DNA of 64,000 bases from Promethearchaeota archaeon (GCA_048937405.1 JBHLNF010000001.1:416001-480000), one strand, 5' to 3'. Positions 10,180 to 19,576 are shown, counted from the stretch's first letter. Program-made: numbers and translations. Notes: generated by a model from the letters alone, not told the origin.

Positions 10180-10203
10180 TTAATAAGAAATACAAAAAAA
10201 AAG

Positions 10204-11018
10204 TTATACCCATTCTTCTTTTAAAATATTTCCTTTTATACCTACGACAACTAATTTAATTGGAACTTTTCTACTTGCTCGTTTAGTCGCTTCTTGAGCT
10301 AAAGCTAATAGACCAGAACAACAAGGAACTTCCATAATAACAACTGTAAGTGTATTTATTTTTGCATCATCAATTAGAGTCTTTATTTTTTCTATATACA
10401 CTTCTTTGCCTTGGTCGAGTTTGGGACAAGCTATTGCGATTGACTTTTGTTTCATGAAATCTCTATGAAAATCCCCATATGAAAATCCTACACAATCTGC
10501 TGAAAGCAATACATCAGCTCCTTGGTAATAAGGTGCTCGAGGATTAATTAAATGCATTTGAACAGGCCATTGTCTTAACGCAGAAGGGATTGTTCCTGAT
10601 ATTTCTGTTTGTGTTTCTGGTCCCTCAAAAACCATTGTTTGAGCAGAAGGACAACCACAATGAGAGTTATTATCAGAAAGAATTTCCTGCATTTGTCCCA
10701 TTTTAGTTTTTTCATTTTGTTTCATAGATTCTAAATGTTTCTCAACAGCCTCCTCATCAAATTCTAAAGCTTCCCTTTCAATTATTTCAAGTGCCCCCTC
10801 AGGACAACCAGAAATGCATGCTCCAAGTCCATCACAGAAAACGTCGTTTATTACCCTCGCTTTTCCGTCGATAACTGCGAGCGCGCCTTTTATGCTATAT
10901 AAATCATTCTTTATATTACTGCACAGTCGACTACGCAATTACCACATCCAGTACATAGATCTTCATCAATCTTGATTATTTTTCTTTTTAATAATTTTTG
11001 TTGTTTTACTTCAGTCAT
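10204..11018 (-). CDS. [4Fe-4S] ferredoxin-domain Fe-S protein, 261 aa after removing a 29-nt insert (exons 11018-10919 and 10889-10204)
   Basis: Exon 1 is MTEVKQQKLLKRKIIKIDEDLCTGCGNCVVDCA; the join gives CAEGALAVIDGKA; then CDGLGACISGCPEGAL, QWPVQ, ACPKLD, MEVPCC. The ORF track misses exon 1. Confidence 0.85.
10890..10918 (-). other. candidate BHB/BHL-type pre-mRNA intron (29 nt)
   Basis: Sense GUGC-AG^U-AAUAUAAA-GAAUGA-UUUAUAUA-GCAU-AA^A; GUGC pairs with GCAU; removal restores frame and CAEGAL. Confidence 0.75.
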
Positions 11019-11053
11019 GATTATATCAAATGGATTTGGCTATATATTTTTGA

Positions 11054-11068
11054 TTTCGAACATGTTCA
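11054..11068. promoter_or_regulatory. palindromic operator TTTCGAACATGTTCA
   Basis: Perfect GAACATGTTC core about 40 bp upstream of the ferredoxin-domain gene; identical 15-mer inverted at 15025-15039. Confidence 0.65.
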
Positions 11069-11134
11069 TAGGATATTAAAATGCAATTATAAACATTGTA
11101 AAAGAGATGACACAAAAAATTAAAAAAAAGAATA

Positions 11135-12502
11135 TTAAGATTTGATATAATAATCATATTTTTTTTTAATCAATATAGCAATGGTTACACTTAACACTGC
11201 AACAATCAGGACTAAAATATAACCTGGAATTTCAGAACTTGGTGTAGCGAGTCCCCCATCTGTAATAATCCAAGAAAAGTTAGTAATGATAAATTGTTTT
11301 GCATTTTCGGAAGCATTGCTATATTTTGAATTACCTGCATTAAAGTTTACGTTAGGTTGTAAGGGTAATTGCGACCAGCCTAATAATAAATTATCATAGT
11401 TGGATGTTGACAATTTAACTTTATAGAACATATCTGTCATATCTGTCACTCTCGAAACATTCCAGCTACCGAGGGGCTGGTTGAATGAAGACGTCCAGGA
11501 GAACATGTAAGCCATATTTGTCACTCTTGAAACGTTCCAGTTATCGAGGGGCTGGTTAAATGAAGTATCTGAAAACATAGATTCCATATTTGTCACTCTC
11601 GAGACATCCCAATTATTGATGGGTTGGTTAAATGAATCAGCTGATAGGAACATCCCTTGCATATTTGTCACGATCCAGACATCCCAGTCACTGATGGGCT
11701 GGTTGAATGAATTAGCCATGTAAAACATAAGTTCCATGTCATTTACGCTCGAAACATCCCAACTTCCGATCGGCTGGTTGAAGGAATCGGCCCCCCGAAA
11801 CATAGCACTCATATCTCTAACACTTGAGACGTCCCAGCTTCCGATGGGTTGGTTGAAGGAATGAGCATTATAGAACATATTACTCATGTCTGTTACATTC
11901 GAGACATCCCATCCGTTCATACTATCACTATCACCGAGATTAGGGCAATACCAAAAAGCTCCATGTAATATAGTAGTCCCCCTTAAATCCAAATTATCAG
12001 TTGCAGTAAGTTCTAGATTTTTACAACCATAAAAATAATGCCCCGAATTTCCTAATCGTAAAGATCCCCATTGTTTGATATCAATTATCTTTAACCGATC
12101 TCCTTCATCATTAAAACACCACCCAATAATCATTCCTGTGATCGTAATGGTGTAAACCCCTTCTGATGCATACGTATGTAAAATGTTAGGGTCATTGAAA
12201 AGCGTGATTAGATCGCTGTTTCCATCGCCCCAAAAAACTGTAAAATCATAGTTACCATCCCATTGTAGTGGTAATTTCACTTGATTACTGTTGCTGGAAT
12301 CCGAGCTTGTCTTTGTTGTATCCCAGACTGATATAAAATCCATTGGATCTGATGTAATAGGTTTAAGAAATTCACATTTAGTAGTTATTAGCTTTTGCTC
12401 GTGAAATAGATATGTAAATACCGAAAAGGTCACAATTGTCAAAGAAAATAATATTATCGTTGCACTTAATTTAACTGATTTGAATTTCATTAATCTAAAC
12501 AC
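11135..12502 (-). CDS. DUF285/BspA-like surface repeat protein with C-terminal IPGY-TM-basic sorting signal
   Basis: N-terminal hydrophobic segment, VFWGDG PKD-like motif, repeats of MFxxAxSFNQPIGSWDVSxV, C-terminal EIPGY + TM + KKK. Confidence 0.88.
   Translation of the reverse strand: MFRLMKFKSVKLSATIILFSLTIVTFSVFTYLFHEQKLITTKCEFLKPITSDPMDFISVWDTTKTSSDSSNSNQVKLPLQWDGNYDFTVFWGDGNSDLITLFNDPNILHTYASEGVYTITITGMIIGWCFNDEGDRLKIIDIKQWGSLRLGNSGHYFYGCKNLELTATDNLDLRGTTILHGAFWYCPNLGDSDSMNGWDVSNVTDMSNMFYNAHSFNQPIGSWDVSSVRDMSAMFRGADSFNQPIGSWDVSSVNDMELMFYMANSFNQPISDWDVWIVTNMQGMFLSADSFNQPINNWDVSRVTNMESMFSDTSFNQPLDNWNVSRVTNMAYMFSWTSSFNQPLGSWNVSRVTDMTDMFYKVKLSTSNYDNLLLGWSQLPLQPNVNFNAGNSKYSNASENAKQFIITNFSWIITDGGLATPSSEIPGYILVLIVAVLSVTIAILIKKKYDYYIKS
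11440..11915 (-). repeat. coding tandem repeat, about 6 units of 72-75 bp
   Basis: Recurring ggttgaatgaa/ggttgaaggaa and gacatccca units encoding the 24-25-aa repeat. Confidence 0.85.
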
Positions 12503-15024: not shown

Positions 15025-15039
15025 TGAACATGTTCGAAA
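15025..15039. promoter_or_regulatory. palindromic operator TGAACATGTTCGAAA
   Basis: In the divergent cooS / NADH oxidoreductase intergenic region; reverse complement of 11054-11068. Confidence 0.65.
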
Positions 15040-16888: not shown

Positions 16889-17058
16889 TTGGCAAAATGG
16901 GAATGTCAAGCTTGTGGATATGTTTATGATGAAGAAGCTGAAGGTACAAAATTTGAAGATTTACCAGACGATTGGACTTGTCCTGTATGTGGCGTAGTCA
17001 TGATAGGATCTCCCATTATGGCGTAAGAAAGGACATGTTCGAGAAGATTGAAGGTTAA
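16889..17058 (+). CDS. rubredoxin, 46 aa after removing a 29-nt insert (exons 16889-16997 and 17027-17058)
   Basis: Spliced product [46 protein letters not shown]; TTG start. Confidence 0.88.
16998..17026 (+). other. candidate BHB/BHL-type pre-mRNA intron (29 nt)
   Basis: GCGU-AG^U-CAUGAU-AGGAUCUCCC-AUUAUG-GCGU-AA^G; GCGU pairs with GCGU; removal gives CGVGKDMF. Confidence 0.75.
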
Positions 17059-17257: not shown

Positions 17258-19576
17258 TTAAGAAAAAAAATCAAACCAAGATGTGTCTAGTAACCCAGTT
17301 CTTCTACTTTTATTTAGTTTAAGTACAAAAGGTTTAATTTTAGTCAATAAAATGTGTGGTTCATATTCCCAAGCACCCTTTTTATCAAAACTAACACAAA
17401 TTATATTTCCATCTGGAATCTGTAGAAATTCTTTTAACATCAGACCATAAAGTCCTACTTGAGGTAGAGAAGTAAAAAAAGAATAATCATCTGGCTTAAA
17501 ATCTACAACATATACAACATTACATCTGAATTGAATTAAATCAATGTGTCCTAATAGAAAAACATTATTTCGAACAGATTTCCAGATGGGAACTTCAATT
17601 GCATAACTATTCTCATCTTCATTTAGAATAACAGTAAGAATTGGTTTATGTCCTGGTTTTAGAAATCCATCTGCCTGATATTTTTTATATTCTTTCTGAG
17701 CGATTTTTGAAAGGGCATAATTTTGATTATAAATATGTAGTTCACCTTTTTCTTGTAGTTCTTTAATAAAAGGATTGATTATTGGAGCTTTCAAAGGTTC
17801 TTTATTCGAACCTTGGATACTATAATCAGAAGCACGTGGATTTGATGAATCATTAAAGGCATTCAGTGGTATTATATCACCTTCCATAATATCAGTGAAA
17901 AATTTATATAAATTACAATTCAGAAGGGAATTATTAAACTTATTGATTGAATGTTGTTCATCGTTCCATTTAAATGAATATTTTACACCTTGATGATAGA
18001 AATCTTTAACTTTTAAACTTTTCAATCTTTTTAAATCATTTTTTAACTCAATTTTATGATCAGAAATATTTTTTTCAATAAAATCATCAAATTTCTTAAA
18101 AATTTTAGGTTCAGTGAATTGAGAACCTCTTTTAACAAATTTAGCTAAATTTGCAACACTATCTCCCCCATATATATCTAATTTTTTTACAAAATCTAAA
18201 GGCTTTAAATCAGAATTTTTAAAAATTTTAAGTAAAAATTTTGTATCATGAGATGGATTCTGTTCTAATAATTCTTCAAAATCATTACTAGAATAATTGT
18301 GTTTTTTGATTTTTGGAATATGTTTAATAATATAAGAATAAATAGGGCTTCTATTTGTAGTTGCTGTACTATAATCCCAATTTTCACCAATTAATTCTTT
18401 TAGACTATCCCTCGTAACACAATCTTCAAAAATTTTATTTTGTTTTATTGAAAAATATAATAATGAGATTGCAATTAATTGTGGAAAAGTATATCTATTA
18501 CTTTGTGAATCTTTTTTAACTTTAAATCCATTTTTAATAGCGATATCAAATAGTTCTAATGCTTTACTTTTGGTTTCATTTTTTATTTGTGATTTGAAAT
18601 AATTTACTCTATTAGCTTTTAAAATATAATGATCCAAAAAATCTGATACCTTATCTCTAAAAGCTAATTGATCAATATAATAGTAATTATGGAGAATATA
18701 CATATAAATTGGAGAAAAAACTTTTTCAACAAGTTGGTAATTTTCAAAATTATTTATAATACTTAGAAAATCTCCCTGTTCTAAATTATTATTATTTTGA
18801 TATCGCAAATACAAATAACAAAAAGCAGCTGAGTAATATTTAGGATCCTTTGTTTCTGGAGCAGACTTATAAAACCTCTTTATCTTTTCACTAGTGTTTA
18901 CACATTGAATGTAATTTAGTCCATTTATAAATAATTCATCTACTTGGATGAGATTTTCTTCTAAATTTAGATTTTTTTTTATATCGTTTATGTAATAAAT
19001 AATATCATCAAAATAGTTCTCATAATTAGTTAATTTATAATTAATTATTGGTCTTGAAAGATTTTTATATTTAGGTAATTCACTAAGAAGTCTTACATAA
19101 TAATTTTTTGTACGAGAGAGATTGTCCTTCTGAAGATTTAATCGCACAGCAAGTTCTTTTACTTTTAATTTTTTTCCTATAAGATCTAATCCAATAAAAA
19201 TGAGAGAACATGCAGTATATTTAACATCCTTTATGGGTAAATTATAATATAAATTGTTAAATTGTTCAGATTCATCTAATCCAGAGTTATTTCTTAAACT
19301 GTCTTGAAAAATATTGAATAATTCCTTAACAGAAAATGTAGTATCTCCTTTGTTTTTTAATTTTTCTTTGAATTCTTTTAAAGTTTGGATTAAATCAAAT
19401 TCAAACATGTTTTTTTTAGAAAAAATAGTTTTGTTAGTAGGGGAAAGATTTTCCTGCAATTCATTGATTTGAGTATTAATGAGATTATTGTCAAAACATG
19501 AACTATTTTGAGAATTCTTAAAGCGCGAAGGATTTTTTGTACAAGTATATTTTTTTTTATTGTTATCATTTGTCAT
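17258..19576 (-). CDS. large protein with TFB/cyclin-like repeats and C-terminal PD-(D/E)XK (RecB/Cas4-like) nuclease
   Basis: IEVPIWK..GHIDLI..VVDFKP..PQVGLYG; helical repeats such as YTACSLIFIGLDLIGKKLKVKELA. Confidence 0.6.
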   Translation of the reverse strand: MTNDNNKKKYTCTKNPSRFKNSQNSSCFDNNLINTQINELQENLSPTNKTIFSKKNMFEFDLIQTLKEFKEKLKNKGDTTFSVKELFNIFQDSLRNNSGLDESEQFNNLYYNLPIKDVKYTACSLIFIGLDLIGKKLKVKELAVRLNLQKDNLSRTKNYYVRLLSELPKYKNLSRPIINYKLTNYENYFDDIIYYINDIKKNLNLEENLIQVDELFINGLNYIQCVNTSEKIKRFYKSAPETKDPKYYSAAFCYLYLRYQNNNNLEQGDFLSIINNFENYQLVEKVFSPIYMYILHNYYYIDQLAFRDKVSDFLDHYILKANRVNYFKSQIKNETKSKALELFDIAIKNGFKVKKDSQSNRYTFPQLIAISLLYFSIKQNKIFEDCVTRDSLKELIGENWDYSTATTNRSPIYSYIIKHIPKIKKHNYSSNDFEELLEQNPSHDTKFLLKIFKNSDLKPLDFVKKLDIYGGDSVANLAKFVKRGSQFTEPKIFKKFDDFIEKNISDHKIELKNDLKRLKSLKVKDFYHQGVKYSFKWNDEQHSINKFNNSLLNCNLYKFFTDIMEGDIIPLNAFNDSSNPRASDYSIQGSNKEPLKAPIINPFIKELQEKGELHIYNQNYALSKIAQKEYKKYQADGFLKPGHKPILTVILNEDENSYAIEVPIWKSVRNNVFLLGHIDLIQFRCNVVYVVDFKPDDYSFFTSLPQVGLYGLMLKEFLQIPDGNIICVSFDKKGAWEYEPHILLTKIKPFVLKLNKSRRTGLLDTSWFDFFS

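What the first reader, a model, noticed from the sequence alone, without database searches (positions are those of the whole stretch)
10890..10918. Second 29-nt BHB/BHL intron, in a [4Fe-4S] ferredoxin-domain gene
SEEN: the true N-terminus (ATG 11018, ...LCTGCGNCVVDCA) is out of frame with the 244-aa ORF, and unspliced translation stops (V-I-TAA) inside an AU-rich 29-nt insert. The sense RNA forms helix GUGC/GCAU, bulges AG^U and AA^A, and intron stem AUAUAAA/UUUAUAU behind an A.A mismatch. An extended exon stem pairs UUGCG-U-AGU-CG-A-CU with AG-G-CG-C-GCU-CGCAG. INFERENCE: canonical EndA cutting gives GCA G|AA GGC GCG CTC, i.e. CAEGAL, matching the protein's own second motif CPEGAL. Shifting the cut by one nucleotide gives K or V instead. 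The spliced CDS is 786 nt (261 aa).
Basis: partly seen in the sequence, partly recalled or inferred. Interest (0 to 1): 0.93.

Follow-up and report, generated by a model that had tools for sequence, protein, structure and literature searches.

The report
tRNA-type mini-intron in Asgard ferredoxin gene
A 29-base insert shaped like an archaeal tRNA intron breaks an iron-sulfur protein gene of a Loki-type Asgard archaeon, and comparison with relatives indicates it is cut out of the messenger RNA by the tRNA-splicing enzymes, which the papers I searched report inside the coding sequence of only one other archaeal gene (cbf5).

Summary
Confirmed and supported; splicing is inferred, not observed. 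A 29-nt AU-rich insert (window 10890-10918, minus strand) interrupts a ferredoxin-domain/AF_0155 gene of a Promethearchaeota (Loki-type Asgard) genome.

- **Orthologues:** 41 orthologous loci in related genomes lack the insert and read straight through ..DCA-E-GAL.. . Cutting after the second nucleotide of each 3-nt bulge of the predicted bulge-helix-bulge (BHB) restores exactly that Glu codon and a 261-aa frame, the modal orthologue length.
- **Intron alleles:** Fourteen distinct intron-bearing alleles keep both exons intact and under purifying selection. They keep the central helix, bulges and hairpin. A diverged allele shows compensatory pairs.
- **Exon flanks:** Synonymous sites in the flanks are frozen into an exon-exon helix that intronless alleles lack.
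- **30-nt allele:** It has two in-frame stops and no usable downstream start, which excludes frameshifting and gene fission.
- **Enzymes:** The genome encodes alpha/beta-type EndA and RtcB.
- **RNA:** No RNA run was listed.

A loose BHB fold alone is common by chance here. The evidence is its coincidence with boundaries set independently by orthologues. Presence is patchy on the gene tree.

This scan had already reported similar mini-introns in other genes of this genome and in other Asgard genomes, so this is one more member.

The parts
10919..11018 (-). Exon 1 (100 nt): ATG start, 33 codons plus the first base (G) of the split Glu codon. It encodes the first CxxCxxCxxxC motif of the 2x[4Fe-4S] ferredoxin domain.
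   Evidence: Fer4 families. It is intact with ATG and all four Cys in every intron-bearing allele. pS 0.685 and pN 0.032 outside the helix region.
10890..10918 (-). 29-nt BHB-type intron, phase 1. It holds the third base of bulge 1, an A.A mismatch, a 7-bp AU hairpin with a 6-nt loop, the 3' strand of the central helix (GCAU) and the first two bases of bulge 2.
   Evidence: Absent from 41 orthologous loci. Present in 14 distinct alleles. Single copy in the genome. No Rfam family.
10204..10889 (-). Exon 2 (686 nt including the stop): the last two bases of the Glu codon, the second Fe-S motif (..CPEGAL..) and the AF_0155 (PF27217) domain.
   Evidence: homologues mostly 261 aa with Fer4 + PF27217. 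pN/pS about 0.18 among intron-bearing alleles.
10921..10924 (-). 5' strand of the 4-bp central helix (GUGC, exon 1). It pairs with GCAU at 10892-10895.
   Evidence: Invariant and fully paired in all 13-14 alleles.
10918..10920 (-). Bulge 1 (A-G^U). The predicted 5' cut lies between 10919 and 10918.
   Evidence: The third base varies U/A among alleles.
10889..10891 (-). Bulge 2 (A-A^A). The predicted 3' cut lies between 10890 and 10889.
   Evidence: The second base varies A/C/U among alleles.
10867..10888 (-). 3' strand of the exon-exon outer helix. It pairs with 10925-10945 in exon 1.
   Evidence: 95-99% of cells paired across alleles. 18.5 of 19 pairs in intron alleles against 11.7 of 19 in intronless alleles. 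Synonymous diversity is suppressed only when the intron is present.
10925..10945 (-). 5' strand of the exon-exon outer helix.
   Evidence: Same calls as for 10867-10888. pS 0.141 against 0.684 in intronless alleles for the last 11 codons of exon 1.
11054..11068 (-). 15-bp palindromic site upstream of the exon-1 ATG. An identical copy lies at 15025-15039 (+), in front of the flavoprotein/HCP-like gene pair. It is a probable shared operator and marks exon 1 as the start of the transcription unit.
   Evidence: 2 exact copies in the window, 0.01 expected.

Best explanation
The 29 nt at 10890-10918 are an archaeal bulge-helix-bulge intron inside a protein-coding mRNA.

Proposed mechanism:
1. The gene is transcribed from upstream of ATG 11018.
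2. In the pre-mRNA, the end of exon 1 and the start of exon 2 pair with each other (outer helix). Four exon-1 bases (GUGC) pair with the 3' end of the insert (GCAU). The rest of the insert forms a hairpin.
3. This presents two 3-nt bulges on opposite strands, 4 bp apart.
4. The alpha/beta splicing endonuclease (EndA) cuts after the second base of each bulge, and RtcB joins the exons.
5. The joint re-creates a GAA (Glu) codon and a 261-aa protein whose 2x[4Fe-4S] ferredoxin domain is continuous across it.

Shown: the anatomy, the collinearity with intronless orthologues, conservation and selection, and the presence of the enzymes. Inferred: the cleavage and ligation themselves.
For: 1. Boundaries are set independently of the fold. 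41 orthologous loci have exon 1 and exon 2 contiguous with exactly one GAR codon between them. Only the predicted cut reproduces it.
2. The BHB geometry sits in exactly that register. The per-site chance is about 9.5e-5.
3. Fourteen distinct intron-bearing alleles come from independent assemblies. All have an intact ATG-started exon 1 and an open exon 2, giving spliced lengths of 260-261 aa, or longer where exon 2 carries an internal insert.
4. Exon 1 has pS 0.685 and pN 0.032, the same as in intronless alleles.
5. There is RNA-level constraint only when the intron is present. pS of the last 11 codons of exon 1 is 0.141 against 0.684. The exon helix has 18.5 of 19 pairs against 11.7 of 19. The residue after GAL is Ala in 10 of 12 alleles against Lys in 18 of 26. 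Flank GC3 is raised.
6. The central helix is invariant, and variation falls on the loop, bulge and mismatch positions. With the diverged G063 allele there are 3 pairs with compensatory double changes, reached by 0 of 500 shuffles, and 96.7% of cells are paired against 28-47% when the partners are slid.
7. A 30-nt allele (L047) has two in-frame stops, and its first in-frame start in exon 2 is at codon 85. Its second Fe-S motif can only be translated after excision.
8. The genome has a catalytic EndA alpha whose best solved relatives are chains of Aeropyrum and Pyrobaculum splicing-endonuclease entries (heterotetrameric enzymes, from general knowledge), a second EndA paralogue, and RtcB. Asgard EndA is described as the broad-specificity (alpha-beta)2 type in PMC5829648.
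9. Ferredoxin-domain matches in an intact orthologue span residues about 9-74, across the joint at residue 34.
Against: - No transcript, junction read, circular intron or peptide has been seen.
- The motif is relaxed. An A.A (or G.A) mismatch follows bulge 1, the outer helix has only 2 bp before its first mismatch, and the central helix has a G.U pair.
- For the own sequence, the minimum-free-energy fold differs slightly from the BHB drawing in the outer helix.
- The covariation rests largely on one diverged allele. Without it the shuffles are not exceeded.
- Eleven of the alleles were found with a pattern that required conserved flanks, which inflates the apparent conservation.
- A loose BHB fold is common by chance in this genome.
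Confidence: 0.87

Rival explanations
1. Gene fission. The insert split the gene into a 35-aa peptide (exon 1 plus V-I-stop) and a 244-aa protein started at the internal TTG (10938). Both are functional and no RNA is joined.
For: A 244-aa ORF with a TTG start exists and is what gene callers report. Both parts being under purifying selection would also fit two functional products.
Against: - In the 30-nt allele the exon-2 frame is closed by two stops inside the insert, and the first in-frame start is codon 85. Yet the first 84 codons, including the second Fe-S motif, stay conserved.
- The split falls inside one ferredoxin dicluster domain that is continuous in all solved relatives.
- Fission does not explain the BHB register, the frozen synonymous sites or the exon-exon helix.
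Confidence: 0.04
2. Inactivating insertion. The gene is a pseudogene, or is N-terminally truncated, in these strains.
For: The frame is broken, and most relatives (41 loci) lack the insert.
Against: - Fourteen distinct alleles, down to about 70% protein identity, keep both exons open, the ATG and all Cys ligands. Exon 1 pN/pS is about 0.05.
- The insert keeps its length, apart from one 30-nt allele, and its structure, with compensatory changes.
Confidence: 0.03
3. Translational recoding. A programmed -1/+2 frameshift or a ribosomal bypass carries the ribosome from the exon-1 frame into the exon-2 frame.
For: In the 29-nt alleles the exon-2 frame is open through the insert, so a shift before the 0-frame stop would give a fusion with about 10 extra residues. 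A stop codon plus a hairpin are also features of known recoding sites (general knowledge).
Against: - By my reading of the sequence, no slippery heptamer precedes the stop.
- The 30-nt allele would need no shift but has two in-frame stops, so one mechanism cannot serve both alleles.
- Matching take-off and landing codons do not give an open continuation: GCA in the insert is followed by a stop.
- The loop bases that would encode the extra residues vary freely.
Confidence: 0.02
4. Assembly artefact, or a mobile repeat (MITE-like) inserted by chance.
For: Short AT-rich hairpins are common in this genome. One contig (L022) is an assembly or recombination chimera.
Against: - The same insert is present in NCBI MAGs, JGI metagenomes and Logan assemblies of different runs.
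- There is only one copy in the 4.47-Mb genome.
- It has no terminal repeats or target duplication; its boundaries are unique.
Confidence: 0.01

Closest known systems
BHB intron in the cbf5 (pseudouridine synthase) pre-mRNA of Crenarchaeota (Watanabe 2002; Yoshinari 2006; Yokobori 2009, PMC2738675)
   Same: A short intron inside a coding sequence. [quoted passage not shown] The host has a hetero-oligomeric (alpha-beta) splicing endonuclease. Annotation pipelines miss it. Lineage-specific presence and absence is interpreted there as secondary loss.
   Different: A different gene (ferredoxin-domain/AF_0155 protein) and a different phylum (Asgard/Promethearchaeota). cbf5 splicing was shown experimentally, whereas here it is inferred. 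Here a long exon-exon helix is written into synonymous sites. The distribution is much patchier, with intron-bearing and intronless alleles interleaved within one genus.
Archaeal pre-tRNA BHB introns (Marck and Grosjean 2003, as cited in PMC5829648)
   Same: The same geometry: two 3-nt bulges 4 bp apart, a cut after the second bulge base, an exon-exon helix on one side and an intron hairpin on the other. The size is in the tRNA-intron range (11-175 nt according to PMC2738675). The same enzymes would act.
   Different: The exon context is an mRNA, not an anticodon arm. The outer helix must therefore be built from codons, with a measurable cost: Ala instead of Lys, and GC-rich synonymous codons.
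BHB intron in the 5' UTR of HVO_1309 mRNA, Haloferax volcanii (PMC7714728)
   Same: An mRNA processed by the tRNA splicing endonuclease, in that case confirmed in vivo and in vitro.
   Different: That intron lies in the untranslated leader, so removal does not rebuild a reading frame. Here excision is required to make the protein.
IRE1-dependent unconventional splicing of HAC1/XBP1 mRNA (general knowledge; reviewed in PMC13149111)
   Same: Protein-enzyme excision of a short intron that changes the reading frame, with ligation by a tRNA ligase (RtcB in metazoa).
   Different: A different nuclease and recognition motif. The eukaryotic case is stress-regulated, whereas regulation here is only a conjecture.

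Membership tests
Archaeal BHB (EndA-dependent) intron | [quoted passage not shown] | tested here: met
   GUGC/GCAU flanked by A-G-U and A-A-A. The 4-bp helix is paired in 13 of 13 alleles. It is relaxed by an A.A or G.A mismatch next to bulge 1.
Archaeal BHB (EndA-dependent) intron | Flanking helices: an exon-exon helix (h) and an intron-internal helix (h') | tested here: met
   h' has 7 bp (5-8 bp in other alleles). h has 19 pairs with three interruptions and only 2 bp before the first mismatch.
Archaeal BHB (EndA-dependent) intron | Cutting at the symmetric bulge positions yields the functional, orthologue-collinear product | tested here: met
   The joint GCA G|AA GGC gives A-E-G, identical to 41 intronless loci. 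The product is 261 aa.
Archaeal BHB (EndA-dependent) intron | The host encodes the splicing endonuclease and the RtcB ligase | tested here: met
   EndA alpha (G000 C27) and a second paralogue (C8) are both above the Pfam cut-off. RtcB has E 1.8e-169.
Archaeal BHB (EndA-dependent) intron | The structure is conserved with covariation among homologous introns | tested here: met
   96.7% of cells paired and 3 compensatory pairs, reached by 0 of 500 shuffles. This depends mainly on one diverged allele; without it the result is not significant.
Archaeal BHB (EndA-dependent) intron | Spliced RNA and excised (often circular) intron observed, or cleavage by EndA in vitro | not testable with these tools
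   No RNA run was listed for this sequence. No spliced form turned up in the metagenome or genome contig scans.
Programmed ribosomal frameshift / bypass site | One recoding event that restores the frame in all alleles, with a slippery or take-off/landing sequence | tested here: not met
   The 29-nt and 30-nt alleles need different shifts, and the 30-nt allele has two in-frame stops. By my reading there is no slippery heptamer.
Group I / group II self-splicing intron | Ribozyme core of hundreds of nucleotides | tested here: not met
   The insert is 29 nt, and there is no Rfam match at E <= 1.
MITE or other repeated mobile insertion | Multiple copies in the genome, with terminal inverted repeats and a target-site duplication | tested here: not met
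   Only the self-match is full-length in 4.47 Mb. The boundaries are unique, with no duplication.

The most novel reading that the evidence does not exclude
The intron may be more than a passive passenger, in two ways.

(a) It may belong to a turnover-prone population of BHB mini-introns that are repeatedly lost, and possibly gained or exchanged by short-tract recombination, among co-existing Promethearchaeota strains. Intron-bearing alleles are not one clade, and at least 6-9 changes are needed on the gene tree.

(b) Its removal may be a regulated step, with HAC1/XBP1-like logic, for a redox or nitrosative-stress gene cluster. Two genes of that cluster, this one and rubredoxin, carry 29-nt, phase-1 introns with the same boundary motif, just after an Fe-binding Cys motif. 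The cluster also shares a 15-bp operator.
Probability: 0.15. Interest if true: 0.92.

Novelty: new member of a known kind. Interest (0 to 1): 0.8.

Why it matters
In the papers I searched, EndA-type introns inside archaeal coding sequences are documented for a single gene, cbf5 in Crenarchaeota, plus one 5'-UTR case in Haloferax (PMC7714728, PMC2738675, PMC12397907). A well-supported case in an unrelated gene of Asgard archaea, the closest prokaryotic relatives of eukaryotes, has several consequences.

- **Scope of splicing.** Together with the other cases this scan has flagged, it suggests that protein-enzyme mRNA splicing is a recurrent feature of this lineage and not a curiosity.
- **Annotation.** This protein is deposited as a 244-aa truncated product in several MAGs, so Asgard gene catalogues and metabolic reconstructions will miscount such genes.
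- **RNA structure versus coding.** This locus shows measurably how an RNA-structure requirement reshapes coding sequence, through frozen synonymous sites and an Ala-for-Lys replacement.
- **Intron loss and gain.** Presence is polymorphic among close relatives, which gives a natural system for studying intron loss and gain in archaea.

Tried and rejected
- **RNA evidence.** No RNA holder was listed for window 10200-11100, so no reads could be laid.
- **Search for a spliced or cDNA-like form.** A flank pattern allowing a gap of 0-30 nt found 7 metagenome and 5 genome contigs. All had gap 29 except one with gap 30; none had gap 0.
- **Genome-wide census.** A loose BHB descriptor, alone or combined with an ORF-fusion filter and a full-hairpin filter, gave as many hits as a mirror-geometry control: 49,065 against 48,967, 1,445 against 1,418, and 130 against 140. 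It recovered this intron but cannot count the family. A census would need homology across each junction.
- **Comparison with the genome's own tRNA introns.** ARAGORN calls were too few and too unreliable. One plausible anticodon-arm intron, with bulge 1 also reading A-G-U, fitted the descriptor.
- **Databases.** Rfam gave no match. The local Pfam and NCBIfam copies give nothing for exon 2; PF27217 appears only in precomputed annotations.
- **Covariation on the first 7 and 13 alleles** was not significant. It became significant only after an unbiased look at 16 more loci found the diverged G063 allele.
- **L022 (G056).** This contig is a chimera: an intron-bearing 5' part joined to an intronless 3' part. 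It should not be counted in the gain/loss tally.
- **G009.** Its locus is masked by N at the junction.
- **Rejected readings.** Frameshift or bypass, gene fission, pseudogene, MITE and assembly artefact; see the rival explanations.

Full report
**What is there**

On the minus strand an ATG at 11018 opens a frame that encodes 33 residues ending ..LCTGCGNCVVDCA. It then reads V-I-stop. The 244-aa ORF that gene callers report (10204-10938) lies in another frame. Its product from GALAVIDGK onward is the conserved body of the protein.

Between the two lies a 29-nt AU-rich stretch, 10890-10918. Exon 1 alone matches 4Fe-4S ferredoxin families. Homologues of exon 2 are overwhelmingly 261 aa and carry an N-terminal Fer4 dicluster domain plus PF27217 (AF_0155). 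A minority are 244 or 240 aa with PF27217 only. The names attached to homologues, and the whole-genome search, place the window in a Promethearchaeota (Loki-type Asgard) genome of 4.47 Mb.

**Boundaries from orthologues, independent of any fold**

I examined 46 orthologous loci from genomes of the same order.
- In 41, exon 1 and exon 2 are contiguous in one frame, with exactly one codon, GAG or GAA, between them..D-C-A-E-G-A-L...
- Four carry an insert at this very point: the window's own genome, G050, G056 and G063.
- One is masked by N.

Removing 10890-10918 gives GCA G|AA GGC, which is A-E-G. Sliding the removed block by one base either way gives Lys or Val, so the placement is unique. The spliced frame is 786 nt, 261 aa.

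**The fold**

RNAfold of 10860-10950 and direct pairing checks on all alleles give the following elements:
- a 4-bp helix between exon-1 GUGC and intron GCAU;
- a 3-nt bulge A-G-U followed by an A.A mismatch;
- a 7-bp AU hairpin with a 6-nt loop;
- a clean 3-nt bulge A-A-A;
- an interrupted exon-exon helix of 19 pairs.

This is the geometry of the archaeal splicing motif, with the bulge 3' of the central helix on both strands. The insert boundaries fall after the second base of each bulge.

The fold by itself proves little. Its z-score is -2.3, and a loose descriptor of the motif matches about 49,000 places in this AT-rich genome, no more than a mirror-image control. What matters is the coincidence with boundaries fixed by orthologues. 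For a given site and length the descriptor is met with a probability of about 9.5e-5.

**The insert is kept, and the gene around it is alive**

Three routes yielded 14 distinct intron-bearing alleles from NCBI MAGs, JGI metagenomes and Logan assemblies:
- look-ups of the 244- and 240-aa proteins;
- pattern scans of metagenome and genome contigs;
- an unbiased inspection of further order-level loci.

All have an ATG-started exon 1 with all four Cys and an open exon 2.

| Region compared | Intron-bearing alleles | Intronless alleles |
|---|---|---|
| Exon 1 outside the helix region | pS 0.685, pN 0.032 | pS 0.748, pN 0.043 |
| Last 11 codons of exon 1 | pS 0.141 | pS 0.684 |
| First 12 codons of exon 2 | pS 0.282 | pS 0.504 |

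The first row shows that the short first exon is translated and constrained. The other two rows show that synonymous diversity collapses in the flanks only when the intron is present.

The same exon positions form 18.5 of 19 outer-helix pairs in intron alleles but 11.7 of 19 in intronless ones. The residue after G-A-L is Ala, whose codon pairs with the Cys codon of exon 1, in 10 of 12 intron alleles. It is Lys in 18 of 26 intronless alleles. GC3 of the flanks is roughly doubled. The exons are therefore shaped to fold with the insert.

**Structure conservation and covariation**

- Across alleles the central helix never varies. Changes fall on the loop, the mismatch base, the third base of bulge 1 and the second base of bulge 2.
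- On the first 13 alleles nearly all changes in paired columns were wobble-compatible, but there was no significant covariation. Most of those alleles had been found with a pattern that required conserved flanks.
- The G063 allele was found without that bias. It has a 29-nt insert at the same site with a quite different hairpin and loop, yet the same central helix and bulges.
- With G063 included, three pairs show changes on both sides, two of them in the intron hairpin. This is reached by 0 of 500 shuffles. 96.7% of cells pair, against 28-47% in slid controls.

**A natural experiment**

One allele (L047) has a 30-nt insert. Its exons are then in the same genomic frame, but the insert contains two in-frame stops. 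The first in-frame start codon in exon 2 is codon 85, downstream of the perfectly conserved second Fe-S motif. Neither a fixed ribosomal frameshift nor independent translation of the downstream part can explain both the 29-nt and 30-nt alleles. Excision at the bulges does.

**Enzymes**

- The genome encodes a 197-aa EndA whose best solved relatives are chains of Aeropyrum and Pyrobaculum splicing-endonuclease entries, heterotetrameric enzymes by general knowledge.
- It has a second 200-aa paralogue with both endonuclease domains. By my reading of its sequence the catalytic His appears to be missing.
- It has RtcB.
- PMC5829648 reports that Asgard archaea have the (alpha-beta)2 enzyme with the loop linked to broad substrate range.
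- ARAGORN recognises only 7 uninterrupted tRNA genes, and 21 when one intron is allowed, in this 100%-complete genome. This fits the heavily interrupted Asgard tRNA genes described in preprint 10.64898/2026.10.13.758758.

**Distribution**

- On an exon-2 tree that leaves out the helix-forming first 45 nt, intron-bearing alleles are not one clade. The AU test gives p = 1e-47, with 5 changes on 36 rows.
- On 43 rows there are 10 changes, 7 of them forced by well-supported branches. These counts include the chimeric contig L022, so about one change fewer should be assumed.
- Sister pairs such as L041/L047 with intronless L023 share lineage-specific residues next to the intron but differ densely at flank synonymous sites.
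- The diverged G063 intron argues that the intron is old and has been lost repeatedly, as proposed for cbf5 (PMC2738675). Short-tract recombination between intron-bearing and intronless alleles is not excluded.
- The four species-representative genomes with the intron all belong to the window's genus. None of the loci I examined from other genera has it.

**What the protein is**

In an intact orthologue the ferredoxin dicluster domain spans residues about 9-74, across the joint at residue 34. The remainder is the AF_0155 domain, of unknown function.

The gene is always next to an HTH_10 regulator. In this window it sits in a redox cluster:
- an FMN reductase;
- a Prismane/HCP-like protein;
- a rubredoxin-reductase-like flavoprotein;
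- a rubredoxin gene that itself carries a 29-nt insert with the same boundary architecture.

A 15-bp palindromic site occurs twice, upstream of exon 1 and of the flavoprotein/HCP-like pair.

**Comparison with the literature**

Full-text searches found no report of BHB introns in Asgard protein-coding genes. PMC7714728 (2020) states that, besides its own 5'-UTR case, only the cbf5 intron is known. A 2025 paper on these enzymes still cites only the cbf5 papers.

This scan's own earlier notes report similar mini-introns in other genes of this genome and in other Asgard genomes. I did not re-test those, apart from reading the rubredoxin insert.

**Verdict**

This is a real feature, very probably an EndA/RtcB-spliced mRNA intron (about 0.87). 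It is a new member of the cbf5-type kind, in a new gene and phylum. Direct RNA evidence is still missing.

Noticed in passing
window 16998-17026 (+), gene 16898-17057: The rubredoxin gene carries its own 29-nt, phase-1 insert with the same architecture: GCGU, A-G^U, a 6-bp hairpin, GCGU, A-A^G. Exon 1 matches Pfam Rubredoxin positions 2-42 of 47, and the tail (..KDMFEKIEG) follows in another frame.
   Followed up: partly
window 11054-11068 (-) and 15025-15039 (+): Two exact copies of a 15-bp site with a palindromic core (TGAACATGTTCGAAA; 0.01 expected). One is upstream of the intron-bearing gene. The other lies between the HCP-like gene and the flavoprotein gene. They probably mark a shared operator of a redox-stress regulon.
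   Followed up: partly
L047:4152-4253 (JGI contig Ga0307426_1001110): A 30-nt variant of the intron, with one extra base and a 6-bp hairpin. It puts the exons in one genomic frame but has two in-frame stops. It is useful as a natural control.
   Followed up: yes
L057:234-334 (G063:C4): A same-genus genome carries a strongly diverged 29-nt intron at the same site, with a different hairpin and loop sequence but the same bulges and central helix. An Asp-to-Ala change closes the A x G mismatch of the outer helix.
   Followed up: yes
L022 (G056:C130, contig end): The contig is identical to an intron-bearing allele (L043) up to about 30 nt into exon 2. From there on it is identical to an intronless allele (L006). 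It is either an assembly chimera of co-existing strains or a true recombinant.
   Followed up: partly
L048 and L056, exon 2: Two intron-bearing alleles carry an internal insertion of about 25 residues that duplicates the H-x-C-G-C segment of the AF_0155 part. The frame stays open.
   Followed up: no
whole genome G000: ARAGORN finds only 7 uninterrupted tRNA genes, and 21 when one anticodon-loop intron is allowed, in a 100%-complete 4.47-Mb genome. Most tRNA genes must be interrupted in ways the program does not model.
   Followed up: no
window 17258-19576 (-): A 772-aa ORF with no Pfam match lies next to the rubredoxin gene.
   Followed up: no
window 11135-12502 (-): A 455-aa DUF285 (BspA-like repeat) protein, with what looks like a C-terminal hydrophobic anchor, lies directly upstream of the intron-bearing gene. 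It is absent from that position in the related loci fetched.
   Followed up: no
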